A stretch of 64,000 bases of DNA from a virus (Duplodnaviria > Caudoviricetes): IMG/VR virus record IMGVR_UViG_3300042479_000799, positions 1-64,000 of that record. One strand, given 5' to 3'. Below are positions 61,849-63,879 of this stretch, piece by piece; the first letter of the stretch is position 1, and the number at the start of each line of letters is the position of its first letter. The notes under the pieces were generated by a model that saw nothing but the letters and a program-made list of their open reading frames with translations, did not search any database and was not told the origin of the DNA. The position numbers and the translations under genes are program-made.

Positions 61849-61955
61849 TACTTATTACTTCTTTATCTTACCGCAAATTTTCAAAGAATCAACTTCTTTT
61901 TTAGAGAAGTTTGAACATATAAATATATACAAATATATGAATACATTCAAAAAGA

Positions 61956-62011
61956 TGGTGTCCCCACCAGAAATCATTTCTGGATGTTATCCACATTTTA
62001 GCTACGATAAC
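61956..62011 (-). pseudogene. remnant / partial duplicate of tRNA-Arg(UCU)
   Basis: T-arm-like hairpin plus TGGGGACACCA, identical to the tRNA-Arg 3' end; no anticodon arm. Confidence 0.6.
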
Positions 62012-62028
62012 ATTGTTAAAAACTATTG

Positions 62029-63753
62029 TCAATGAGAATGTTTACAATTATCATCCGTACATTCTTCTTCGGGAATTTCCTTATCATACTCATCTGTCAC
62101 ATCATCCGTTGCTGAATCCCAATGTTCTTCAGCATGACAATTTGTACATAACACTTTACATTTGTCCAATTCTTTTTTTATTCTATCATGTAGTTCTTGA
62201 CCAGGTTGCCATCCACTCCATTCTGGCCAGCTAAAAAATAATTTAAATTGTTTATCTTTTGAATTCGGGTTAATGTGATGAAAATCATAAATTGAAATAA
62301 TACTCTTTGTAGAACATTTTTCACATCTATCTATTTTTTTATAATCAAGACACGCTTGTTTTTTATCTCTACGACGTTGACTCTGTTTGTGTTTCAAATC
62401 TGAAGAAAAATGGACTTTTCTATGACAATTTTTACATAATAATTCACATTTGTCCAATTCATTCTTTAATTGTTCTAAAGGTTTTCTTCTAAGATTGAAC
62501 CAATTTTTGTCTTTTTGAGTTCTATCAACATGGTGAAAATCTAATGCGCCATTGGATTTATTATATCCACAATGGATACATTTTCCTCCTTTATAGTCAA
62601 CCGCTTGTTGTTTATTTTTATTATAAATATTCTTATTCATGATAACTGCTTTTTCATGACAATCTTTACATCTCAGTTTATAAGTTCCGTCTGGATTTTG
62701 CATCGCTGATTTATTACCACACACTCTACAGAGTCCAAGGTTCTTTTTACGATTTTTCCAAAGTCCAGCATGACCTCTTGAGATATCATAATGTTTCTGA
62801 CATAAAACATTATTTAGCAGTGCCTTTTCTGCACAATTAAAATATATACACTGTCCTCTTTCTTTACGATTGTTTGCAATCCAAACGGATCGTTCTTTTT
62901 TATTGTTAAAATGCATATTTTTATATATGTTATAATCATCATCTGACATATTCTTAGGACGTTTTATTTGCATTTTAACTCCACCGTGTTTTTCACAAAA
63001 ACGTTGTGGTTTTTGTGTGTATGGATTAGGTAGGGTTTTATCTCCACATGTGGTACATTGTCCTCTGTCTAGTCTATATTTATAGAACCATTTTTGGCGT
63101 TCTACTGGACTAGTAAATGATAATGTTTTATAAATTTCAAAATCTTCGGATGACATTCCGTTTGGTATCGTAGTTCTAGAACGTGTAAGTATACGTTTTT
63201 GTATTTCTGGATTTTGAATAACGTTGTCAATTATATTTTTTACTGTAATATATGAAGTTTTGAAAGTTTTTAGAATATCCAATATTGAAACTCCAGATGT
63301 ATATAAATCAATAATTTCTTTTTCTTGTTCCGGTGTTATTTTTTTTTTGTCTCGTATAGTTACACCGTTTCTAACTAAAATAGTAATGATAGTCCCTGCA
63401 CTCACATTGAATTGTTTTGCAATCTGTGCGGCATTTAAAGGATTTTTTGTGTCTGTGTAAAGAGATACTATTTCTTTTTCTTGTTCCAGTGTTAATTTTT
63501 TTTTGTCTCGTATAGTTACACCGTTTCTAACTAAAATATTACTGATAGTCCCTGCACTCACATTGAATTGTTTTGCAATCTGTGCGGCATTCAAAGGATT
63601 GTTTTTATCCGTGTAAAGAGATACTATTTCTTTTTCTTGTTCCGGTGTTCCAAAGCGAGCTATTTCATTCAAAGACAATTCTTCCTTCAATAATTGAATG
63701 TGATTTATTTCATCTGCCGCAAAAAAATCTTTATATTTTATACAATCACACAT
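62029..63753 (-). CDS. multidomain protein: tandem HTH repeats, Zn-ribbon repeats and two HNH domains
   Basis: 52-aa repeats; C..C clusters; C..CG...ALDFHHVD...ELDKC.LLC.NCH..VH and C..C...YDFHHIN...ELDKC.VLC.NCH..EH. Confidence 0.85.
   Translation of the reverse strand: MCDCIKYKDFFAADEINHIQLLKEELSLNEIARFGTPEQEKEIVSLYTDKNNPLNAAQIAKQFNVSAGTISNILVRNGVTIRDKKKLTLEQEKEIVSLYTDTKNPLNAAQIAKQFNVSAGTIITILVRNGVTIRDKKKITPEQEKEIIDLYTSGVSILDILKTFKTSYITVKNIIDNVIQNPEIQKRILTRSRTTIPNGMSSEDFEIYKTLSFTSPVERQKWFYKYRLDRGQCTTCGDKTLPNPYTQKPQRFCEKHGGVKMQIKRPKNMSDDDYNIYKNMHFNNKKERSVWIANNRKERGQCIYFNCAEKALLNNVLCQKHYDISRGHAGLWKNRKKNLGLCRVCGNKSAMQNPDGTYKLRCKDCHEKAVIMNKNIYNKNKQQAVDYKGGKCIHCGYNKSNGALDFHHVDRTQKDKNWFNLRRKPLEQLKNELDKCELLCKNCHRKVHFSSDLKHKQSQRRRDKKQACLDYKKIDRCEKCSTKSIISIYDFHHINPNSKDKQFKLFFSWPEWSGWQPGQELHDRIKKELDKCKVLCTNCHAEEHWDSATDDVTDEYDKEIPEEECTDDNCKHSH
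63314..63648. repeat. 156-bp coding tandem repeat (~2.2 copies)
   Basis: ATTTCTTTTTCTTGTTCC recurs at 63314, 63470 and 63626. Confidence 0.9.
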
Positions 63754-63803
63754 AGTTTATATGGTTATAAATATGTATGGTTTTATAAATACGCTCAAAA
63801 AGA

Positions 63804-63879
63804 TGGTGTCCCCACTAGGAATCGAACCTAGATCATCCGCTTAGAAGGCGGATGCTCTAACCATTTGAGCTATAGGGAC
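63804..63879 (-). tRNA. tRNA-Arg(UCU)
   Basis: GTCCCTA/TGGGGAC acceptor, TCCGC-CTTCTAA-GCGGA, TTCGATT T-loop, ACCA end. Confidence 0.95.

What the first reader, a model, noticed from the sequence alone, without database searches (positions are those of the whole stretch)
61947..63879. Integrase-free insertion at tRNA-Arg with duplication of the tRNA 3' end
Seen: an exact 21-bp direct repeat (27/29 when extended) covering the acceptor 3' strand, CCA and trailer, 1848 bp apart and enclosing only the dual-HNH gene. The distal copy sits in a remnant that still resembles the tRNA 5' half (TAGCT.AAATG...CATCC) but lacks the anticodon arm. Known: att-like tRNA 3' duplications are typical of integrase-driven islands, and T4 SegB homes within tRNA regions without such repeats. 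Inference: a homing nuclease cassette that restores the target tRNA and leaves a remodelled copy, possibly a distinct mobility route or a retained CCA-ending decoy.
Basis: partly seen in the sequence, partly recalled or inferred. Interest (0 to 1): 0.72.

Follow-up and report, generated by a model that had tools for sequence, protein, structure and literature searches.

The report
Homing nuclease cassette inside phage tRNA-Arg
A selfish DNA-cutting enzyme gene sits inside an arginine tRNA gene of a large freshwater phage and keeps the tRNA working by bringing its own spare last third of the gene. The original last third is left behind as a dead relic. This trick is known from fungal mitochondrial genes; I found no report of it for a phage tRNA.

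Summary
An exact 21-bp direct repeat (61947-61967 and 63795-63815, none expected by chance) lies 1848 bp apart and encloses one 574-aa dual-HNH gene. The distal copy belongs to a 56-nt tRNA-Arg relic that lacks the anticodon arm.

The main new evidence is two HNH-less relatives.
- L084, an IMG/VR contig, has one intact tRNA-Arg(UCU) between the same flanks. Its leader and nucleotides 1-48 are identical to the window's intact copy. Its T stem (CCAGA/TCTGG) and trailer match the relic.
- P0023, a protein-level glimpse of an ENA contig, also shows a single tRNA-Arg and no HNH gene there.

So the window equals that locus plus 1848 bp inserted at the variable-loop/T-stem boundary. The inserted DNA is: a foreign T arm, acceptor 3' strand, CCA, trailer, the HNH gene, and a degenerate leader and 5' half.

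The working tRNA is therefore a hybrid. The native 3' third is stranded downstream.

No integrase was found in about 70 kb. The closest known mechanism is the fungal mitochondrial endonuclease ORF that brings a foreign gene 3' end. T4 SegB is the closest phage system.

Homing, the target site and any RNA role for the relic are inferred, not shown.

The scan had already noted this same stretch from an overlapping window of this genome. I rate it a new variant of a known kind.

The parts
63880..63931 (-). Native promoter-like site (TTGACT, 17 nt, TAAGTT) and boxA-like leader of tRNA-Arg
   Evidence: Read. The 121 nt upstream of the tRNA match the HNH-less relative L084 at 118/121. P0023 ends in the same leader.
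63832..63879 (-). tRNA-Arg(UCU) nucleotides 1-48: the native part of the working hybrid tRNA
   Evidence: 48/48 identical to the single tRNA-Arg of L084. Whole gene called by ARAGORN and Rfam at 73.3 bits.
63804..63831 (-). tRNA-Arg nucleotides 49-76: T arm CTAGG/CCTAG, acceptor 3' strand and CCA, read as brought in with the cassette
   Evidence: The T stem differs from L084 at 4 of 10 positions, as two compensated base pairs. The T loop is identical.
63754..63803 (-). Cassette-side trailer between the tRNA and the HNH start codon
   Evidence: Only 35/50 identical to the trailers of L084 and of the relic, which match each other at 53/60.
62029..63753 (-). 574-aa free-standing nuclease gene: three 52-aa HTH repeats, Zn-ribbon-like Cys pairs, two HNH motifs
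   Evidence: ORF. Pfam HTH families. PHROG HNH families. Family alignment A1. Intact in at least 10 strain variants.
62012..62028 (-). Degenerate boxA-like leader directly after the HNH stop codon (cassette side)
   Evidence: AATAGTTTTTAACAA resembles AATAGTTCTTTAACAA before tRNA-Lys. It is unlike the native Arg leader.
61984..62011 (-). Relic 5' half: decayed tRNA-Arg acceptor and D-arm sequence, followed by a 20-nt gap where the anticodon arm should be
   Evidence: 21/32 to tRNA-Arg, p < 0.0005, best of 9 tRNAs. Gap shown. It now folds as its own 7-bp hairpin.
61956..61983 (-). Relic 3' part: the native T stem CCAGA/TCTGG with its loop changed from TTCGATT to AATGATT (a 17-nt perfect palindrome), then acceptor 3' strand and CCA
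   Evidence: T stem 10/10 identical to L084, loop 4/7.
61906..61955 (-). Native trailer, leading into the promoter of the next small RNA
   Evidence: About 90% identical and colinear with L084. Identical at protein level in the antisense ORF P0023.
61947..61967 (.). Distal copy of the exact 21-bp repeat
63795..63815 (.). Proximal copy of the exact 21-bp repeat

Best explanation
The 1848-bp unit is an insertion inside the phage's tRNA-Arg(UCU) gene, at the boundary between the variable loop and the T stem (nt 48/49, at a shared ATC).

The inserted cassette is, in order:
- a foreign T arm, acceptor 3' strand, CCA and trailer;
- the dual-HNH nuclease gene;
- a degenerate boxA-like leader and tRNA-Arg 5' half.

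The foreign 3' third joins the native 5' two-thirds to make a working hybrid tRNA-Arg. The native 3' third and its trailer are stranded downstream of the nuclease gene. With the cassette's degenerate 5' half they form a dead tRNA look-alike.

Shown: the anatomy, the empty allele, and which piece is native.

Inferred:
- The cassette spreads by nuclease-triggered recombinational repair (homing). Its two homology arms would be the tRNA 5' two-thirds on one side and the T stem plus trailer on the other.
- The nuclease's target is the uninterrupted T-arm region of the empty allele. Both window copies differ from that sequence: two compensated T-stem pairs in the working copy, a changed T loop and a neighbouring deletion in the relic.
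- The 21-bp identity reflects the need for the imported acceptor strand to pair with the native 5' strand, plus a conserved trailer motif. It is not an attachment site.
- The relic's two perfect hairpins probably arose by template switching on imperfect inverted repeats and by slippage across the anticodon hairpin.
For: Empty-site allele L084:
- It has tRNA-Lys and one tRNA-Arg(UCU) 278 nt apart, with no HNH gene and no relic.
- Three-way alignment A2 and segment counts: L084 vs the working copy is 118/121 upstream and 48/48 for nt 1-48, then the T stem is 6/10.
- L084 vs the relic: T stem 10/10, trailer 53/60. L084 vs the cassette-side trailer: 35/50.
- The relic-side flank is colinear with L084 at 90% as far as the acceptor strand.

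Second HNH-less allele:
- The antisense ORF P0023 reads the relic-type trailer, then an intact 77-nt tRNA with anticodon UCN, then the native Arg leader, without interruption.
- tblastn places that stretch on phage tRNA-Arg genes.

Other points:
- The internal pieces are 60-70% identical to their native counterparts, while neutral native flanks differ from L084 by only 8-12%. This argues for import rather than recent duplication in place.
- No recombinase among the 51 ORFs of 150 aa or more in the window, nor in 9 ORFs beyond it.
- The nuclease belongs to a family with fixed N- and C-termini and variable HTH and Zn-ribbon arrays. It is polymorphic in repeat number and intact in many strains.

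Precedents:
- SegB recognises the tRNA T arm and cuts at tRNA 3' ends (PMC2330249).
- Fungal mitochondrial endonuclease ORFs bring a foreign gene 3' end and leave the native one downstream, closer to relatives (PMC3630166).
Against: - Direction is inferred from three alleles only. L084 could instead descend from a window-like state by recombination between the two copies.
- The cassette's own degenerate leader and 5' half have no counterpart in the mitochondrial precedent. They imply a donor in which the nuclease gene already lay between two tRNA-Arg-like units, or a circular or tandem tRNA-plus-HNH module, so the first invasion event is unexplained.
- P0023's tRNA-Arg is a third, quite different allele (at least 17 of 77 positions incompatible). 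Other tRNAs of the array also differ strongly between L084 and the window, so tRNA bodies turn over here even without this nuclease.
- No cleavage, homing or expression data exist.
- The right half of the relic is seen in one assembly only.
Confidence: 0.6

Rival explanations
1. Old tandem duplication. The ancestor had two tRNA-Arg units, the HNH gene landed in the spacer, and the second copy decayed. L084 and P0023 lost the nuclease gene and one copy by recombination between the repeats.
For: Homology between the two units runs colinearly from leader to trailer, not only over the 3' end. A crossover between the working copy and the relic would give exactly the L084 arrangement. Tandem tRNA-plus-nuclease repeats form and collapse readily in T6 (PMC13096335).
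Against: - The inner pieces are 30-40% diverged, while the outer neutral trailer differs from L084 by about 8-12%. The duplication would then have to predate the split and be lost at least once, probably twice.
- With the anticodon arm gone, only a 3-nt ATC is left as homology at the required crossover. A crossover in the 21-bp core would instead give the working copy's T stem, which L084 lacks.
Confidence: 0.2
2. The relic is kept for a function of its own, on top of its origin. It could be a hairpin plus ACCA plus U-run that ends or stabilises the nuclease transcript, a processing site for tRNA-maturing enzymes, or a CCA-ending decoy.
For: 21/21 identity sits within 60-70% flanks. A terminator-like site is called at 61956-61969 only in the relic. 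The T arm has become a perfect 8+1+8 palindrome. In T4 the segB message is cut during maturation of the adjoining tRNA-Arg (PMC2330249).
Against: Fold energies are not better than shuffles (z -1.4 to -1.5). The acceptor stem is replaced by a competing hairpin. Perfect hairpins can arise by template switching without selection. The 11 nt of acceptor strand, discriminator and CCA are explained by constraint on the working copy. No conservation data exist for the relic across strains.
Confidence: 0.15
3. Collapsed in-place segmental amplification of a tRNA-Arg plus HNH unit, as SegB drives in T6, with the relic as the start of a lost second unit.
For: The period of 1848 bp equals one tRNA plus one nuclease gene. 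The cassette is a circular permutation of such a unit. PMC13096335 shows the process.
Against: Fresh amplification gives identical repeats. Here the copies are 60-70% alike outside the 21-bp core, and the relic carries the native, not the duplicated, T stem.
Confidence: 0.05
4. Integrase-mediated island at a tRNA attachment site, with the integrase acting in trans or lost.
For: A direct repeat of a tRNA 3' end is the classic signature of such islands (tRNA gene fragments reviewed in PMC9897764).
Against: No tyrosine or serine recombinase domain was found in the window or in 5.7 kb beyond it. The insert holds one nuclease gene only. The repeat units are homologous over the whole gene, and the junction lies at nt 48/49.
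Confidence: 0.02

Closest known systems
Mobile endonuclease ORFs (mORFs) of fungal mitochondria that carry a foreign gene 3' end (Allomyces macrogynus atp6; Glomus atp6, atp9, cox2, nad3; PMC3630166)
   Same: An endonuclease ORF is inserted inside a gene and preceded by a foreign copy of the gene's 3' end, which completes a hybrid gene. The native 3' end is left downstream. The native piece is much closer to relatives (91-98% there; 10/10 T stem and 88-92% trailer here) than to the inserted copy (64-81% there; 60-70% here).
   Different: The target is a tRNA gene in a phage, not a protein gene in an organelle. The nuclease is a dual-HNH with HTH repeats, not LAGLIDADG or GIY-YIG. The cassette also carries a degenerate leader and 5' half after the nuclease gene. 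Compatibility is set by base pairing of the acceptor stem rather than by reading frame.
T4 SegB, a free-standing GIY-YIG homing endonuclease in the tRNA gene cluster (PMC2330249), and SegB-driven amplification of tRNA-Tyr plus segB in T6 (PMC13096335)
   Same: A free-standing nuclease gene sits within a phage tRNA array, co-oriented with the tRNAs and abutting a tRNA-Arg(-like) sequence. SegB recognises the T arm and cuts at tRNA 3' ends. Here the T arm is exactly where the empty allele and both window copies differ. Relatives lack the gene.
   Different: Unrelated nuclease fold. segB lies between tRNA genes, not inside one. Neither paper describes a hybrid tRNA or a stranded 3' third. The T6 repeats are identical and unstable. 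Cleavage is untested here.
Integrative elements at tRNA genes (an attachment site carrying the tRNA 3' end)
   Same: The element supplies a replacement 3' part of the tRNA and displaces the native one to its far end, giving a direct repeat.
   Different: No integrase. A 1.8-kb single-gene insert. The repeat units are diverged homologues over the whole gene, with only a 21-bp identical stretch.
Aeromonas phage Aeh1 mobE insertion that splits nrdA (recalled from the literature, not read here)
   Same: A free-standing HNH homing gene sits inside an essential phage gene whose function is kept.
   Different: There the function is kept by assembly of two protein pieces. Here it is kept by a spare gene end.

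Membership tests
Free-standing homing endonuclease gene (HNH class) | HNH nuclease motif(s) joined to DNA-binding modules | tested here: met
   PHROG HNH families: phrog_2255 E 1e-34 and phrog_3106 E 8e-26, two stretches each. HH...N...CH motifs are invariant twice in alignment A1. HTH repeats by Pfam. Pfam's own HNH models did not reach E 0.01.
Free-standing homing endonuclease gene (HNH class) | Present in some and absent from other closely related genomes at the same locus, with conserved flanks | tested here: met
   L084 and P0023 lack it between the same leader and trailer.
Free-standing homing endonuclease gene (HNH class) | Cleaves the gene-less allele near the insertion site and is inherited preferentially in mixed infection | not testable with these tools
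   Needs purified protein and phage crosses.
mORF-type gene 3'-end replacement | A foreign 3' end upstream of the endonuclease ORF, and a native 3' end downstream that is closer to relatives | tested here: met
   Relic T stem 10/10 and trailer 53/60 to L084. Working copy T stem 6/10 and trailer 35/50.
mORF-type gene 3'-end replacement | The hybrid gene is expressed and functional, and the native end is silent | tested here: inconclusive
   The hybrid scores as a normal tRNA (73.3 bits). The relic is not recognised as a tRNA. No expression data.
Integrase-driven island at a tRNA gene | A tyrosine or serine recombinase gene at or near the insert | tested here: not met
   None in the insert nor in about 70 kb scanned. 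The rest of the roughly 350-kb genome could not be searched.
SegB-type segmental amplification | Tandem, near-identical repeats of tRNA plus nuclease gene | tested here: not met
   One unit plus a 56-nt relic. The copies are 59-70% alike outside 21 bp.
Functional tRNA (for the relic) | Cloverleaf with anticodon arm and T loop | tested here: not met
   No ARAGORN call. No Rfam match at E <= 1. 20-nt gap over the anticodon arm. T loop AATGATT.

The most novel reading that the evidence does not exclude
The mobile unit is a 'tRNA-Arg plus HNH' module (leader, tRNA, trailer, nuclease gene). It enters a resident tRNA gene by a single homologous crossover from a circular or tandem intermediate, an integrase-free Campbell-type insertion. 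That would explain why the insert is a circular permutation of such a module.

The compensated T-stem changes would then be nuclease-immunity alleles. The strong turnover of tRNA bodies across this array between near relatives would be driven by an arms race with array-resident nucleases.
Probability: 0.2. Interest if true: 0.75.

Novelty: new variant of a known kind. Interest (0 to 1): 0.58.

Why it matters
If the reading is right, it shows a third way for a homing gene to live inside an essential RNA gene. The usual ways are a self-splicing intron or sitting in a spacer. This one carries a spare gene end.

It also gives a natural allele series: an empty allele, a hybrid, and a relic. That series predicts which few T-arm bases decide cutting and immunity.

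It links to recent work showing that nucleases in phage tRNA arrays reshape those arrays (PMC13096335). It may help explain why tRNA bodies in these giant-phage arrays differ so much between close relatives.

It is also a caution for annotation. A tRNA 3' direct repeat in a phage need not mean an integrase.

Tried and rejected
Searches for relatives that found nothing useful:
- No near or distant DNA relatives among GenBank phages, only generic tRNA hits. tblastn with the nuclease gave generic HNH hits only.
- The exact 21-mer, the tRNA-Arg 3' 25-mer and a trailer 24-mer are absent from IMG/VR. The trailer 24-mer is also absent from the genome collection.
- The protein-guided IMG/VR search with the nuclease gave only a 32% hit, L001. 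Its C-terminal 60 aa gave only a weak hit, L083.
- An upstream neighbour gene found nothing.
- A downstream neighbour gave L002, a rearranged relative with no tRNA array in its 39 kb.
Of 80 loci only L003 belongs to the family.
- L085, a MAG contig, matched the 20-mer by chance: no homology and no tRNA.
- The HMMER search of 1.84 billion representatives added nothing beyond P0023.

The contigs of the 31-member nuclease cluster and of P0023 could not be fetched.
- No whole genome is held for the window.

Ideas considered and dropped:
- I first read the relic's T-stem 'compensatory changes' as evidence for selection on the relic. L084 shows the relic's stem is simply the native one.
- The relic as a cloverleaf or minihelix is not favoured by folding.
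- One SNP in L003 that looked like a GU-to-AU change lies outside the predicted hairpin and tells nothing.
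Full report
**Setting**

The window is part of an 82,196-bp contig. It comes from a low-GC (about 31%) freshwater phage with T4-type replication and RNA-repair genes. A related IMG/VR fragment is rated 11% complete at 39 kb, which suggests a genome of roughly 350 kb.

A tRNA array lies on the minus strand from 60443 to 63879. tRNA-Arg(UCU), at 63804-63879, is its first gene. It is preceded by a promoter-like site and a boxA-like leader. No further tRNA lies in the 5.7 kb upstream, as seen in locus L003.

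- The 21-mer occurs exactly twice, 1848 bp apart. Even with three mismatches allowed there are no other matches, and shuffles gave none.
- Between the copies lie 50 nt of trailer, one 574-aa ORF (62029-63753) and 73 nt of tRNA-like sequence.
- The ORF has three tandem 52-aa helix-turn-helix repeats (Pfam) and two HNH motifs (PHROG HNH families).
- It belongs to a family with invariant N- and C-termini and varying numbers of HTH and Zn-ribbon units.

**The distal copy is a whole decayed tRNA-Arg unit, not just a 3' end**

- In one colinear alignment it has a boxA-like leader, a 5' half, a 20-nt gap over the anticodon arm and variable loop, a T arm, the identical 21 nt, and a trailer.
- The 5' half matches tRNA-Arg at 21/32 against 13-17/32 for the other eight tRNAs, p < 0.0005. 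The T arm matches at 10/17. The trailer matches at 20/29, p 0.002.
- Neither ARAGORN nor Rfam (E <= 1) calls it a tRNA.
- It folds into two separate perfect hairpins, no better than shuffled sequence.

**Finding relatives was the hard part**

GenBank phages, IMG/VR and the genome collection gave nothing with the obvious probes. The one metagenome scan returned only L003, which is the same strain at 99.5%. L003 confirms the tRNA-Arg/HNH junction and the relic's 5' half, then ends in an assembler loop at the relic's palindrome.

Two indirect routes worked.

1. Searching the spurious plus-strand ORF that overlies the relic and its trailer found P0023, from a 979-bp ENA contig.
   - Its first 43 residues are the window's trailer region.
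   - The rest is the antisense reading of an intact 77-nt tRNA with anticodon UCN and A73.
   - It ends in the same leader as the window's working tRNA-Arg.
   - tblastn places that part on phage tRNA-Arg genes.
2. A 20-mer from the native leader hit IMG/VR contig L084. L084 carries the same array in the same order.

**L084 is the empty site**

tRNA-Lys and a single tRNA-Arg(UCU) lie 278 nt apart, with no nuclease gene and no relic. Segment by segment:

| Compared with L084 | Result |
|---|---|
| 121 nt upstream of the working copy | 118/121 |
| Working copy, tRNA nt 1-48 | 48/48 |
| Working copy, T stem (CTAGG/CCTAG vs CCAGA/TCTGG) | 6/10; the 4 differences are two compensated base pairs |
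| Working copy, trailer | 35/50 |
| Relic, T stem | 10/10 |
| Relic, trailer | 53/60 |
| Relic-side flank, from the spacer after tRNA-Lys to the relic's acceptor strand | 90%, colinear |

Orthology therefore switches from the working copy to the relic between nt 48 and 49. Both junctions share ATC at that point.

Relative to L084, the window has 1848 bp inserted inside the tRNA gene. In order these are: a foreign T arm, acceptor 3' strand, CCA, trailer, the HNH gene, and a degenerate leader and 5' half. The working tRNA is a hybrid, and the native 3' third is stranded.

**Direction of the event**

The inner pieces are 30-40% diverged from their native counterparts. The native trailer differs from L084 by only about 8-12%. 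Recent duplication in place would need a several-fold faster rate in the inner pieces.

The reverse event, with L084 derived by a crossover between the two copies, would have to use a 3-nt homology or be older than the anticodon-arm deletion. A crossover in the 21-bp core would give a T stem that L084 does not have.

Two HNH-less single-copy alleles (L084, and P0023 from a closer relative) also favour insertion. This is parsimony on three alleles, so I give the insertion reading 0.6 and the old-duplication reading 0.2.

**The 21-bp identity needs no attachment-site role**

- Eleven of the 21 nt are the acceptor 3' strand, discriminator and CCA. In the imported piece these must pair with the native 5' strand.
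- The next nine (TCTTTTTGA) are also nearly kept in L084, at 8/9.

**How the relic's other features could arise**

- The T loop changed from TTC to AAT. This turns the arm into a perfect 8+1+8 palindrome, so a single template-switch event on an imperfect inverted repeat could explain it.
- The 20-nt gap lies between two ATC triplets across the anticodon hairpin, which fits slippage.

Both are inferences from the sequence.

A role for the relic as a terminator, processing site or decoy remains possible. A terminator-like site is called only at the relic. Nothing here tests such a role.

**No integrase**

No recombinase domain turned up among the window's 51 ORFs of 150 aa or more, nor in nine ORFs beyond its end. 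The rest of the genome could not be searched.

**Comparison with known systems**

- The closest mechanism is the fungal mitochondrial mobile endonuclease ORF. It carries a foreign gene 3' end and leaves the native one downstream, closer to relatives than to the inserted copy (PMC3630166). The signature here is the same.
- The closest phage system is T4 SegB. It is a free-standing nuclease in the tRNA cluster that recognises the T arm and cuts at tRNA 3' ends (PMC2330249). In T6 it drives amplification of a tRNA-plus-segB unit (PMC13096335).
- My literature searches found no phage case of a hybrid tRNA with a stranded 3' third.

The T arm is exactly where the empty allele differs from both window copies. 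By analogy with SegB I therefore predict it is the nuclease's target and the seat of immunity. That is untested.

**State of the nuclease gene**

Between L003 and the window all nine differences fall inside the ORF (6 non-synonymous, 3 synonymous). None falls in the 247 nt upstream. The ORF is intact in at least ten strain variants, and some forms lack one HTH repeat. This looks like a live but loosely constrained selfish gene.

**Verdict**

I rate this a new variant of a known kind, of moderate to good interest.

The same stretch had already been flagged by this scan from an overlapping window of the same genome.

Noticed in passing
L084 3049-3597 (+) and 4719-5501 (-): The HNH-less relative carries two other nuclease-like ORFs inside the same tRNA array, at places where the window has none. 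One is a 182-aa HNH-like protein. The other is a 260-aa protein with Zn-ribbon repeats and a PD-(D/E)XK-like motif. The array looks like a hot spot for homing genes.
   Followed up: partly
window 60707-61585 vs L084 4241-6169: tRNA bodies differ strongly between the two relatives although the flanks align at 80-92%. Ile(UAU) is 92/92 identical and Lys nearly so. By eye from the alignments, Glu, Met and Leu(CAA) are only about two-thirds to three-quarters alike. Leu(UAA) is an 88-nt long-arm tRNA in L084 but 76 nt in the window.
   Followed up: partly
window 62029-63753: The nuclease family keeps an invariant N-terminus (MCDCIKYKDFF...LLKEEL) and C-terminus (...CTDDNCKHSH), while the number of HTH and Zn-ribbon units varies. 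In the close cluster 574-aa and 521-aa forms differ by one 52-aa repeat.
   Followed up: partly
window 61747-61846 (-): A GC-rich element of about 100 nt with its own promoter, ending in ...CACCA, lies in a stretch (61700-61967) that is 90% identical to L084. It has no Rfam match.
   Followed up: no
window 61405-61509 (-): A sub-threshold match to the wcaG RNA motif (32.9 bits against a gathering score of 42, E 0.0017) lies between tRNA-Met and tRNA-Glu. Part of this region (61329-61447) aligns with L084 at 90%.
   Followed up: no
window 61150-61240 (-) and L084 about 5650-5730 (-): A tRNA-like stretch with a ...TCATAA... loop and an ...ACCA end lies between two tRNA-Met genes. ARAGORN does not call it. 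L084 has a counterpart.
   Followed up: no
L003 7785-7847: The independent contig ends in repeated ATCCAGAAATGAT units, an assembler loop at the relic's palindrome. Most contigs listed for this nuclease cluster are only about 1-3 kb, which suggests that assemblies often break near this gene.
   Followed up: partly
window 33122-33763 (-): A second, unrelated 213-aa HNH endonuclease gene (Pfam HNH_5, HNH_4, HNH).
   Followed up: no
window about 8000-20000: A very low-GC (22-25%) island of glycosyltransferase, methyltransferase and sugar epimerase genes.
   Followed up: no
L002 (IMG/VR relative): Blocks 77-94% identical to the window appear in a different order, and the 39-kb record has no tRNA array. 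Either the genome is rearranged or the contig is chimeric.
   Followed up: partly
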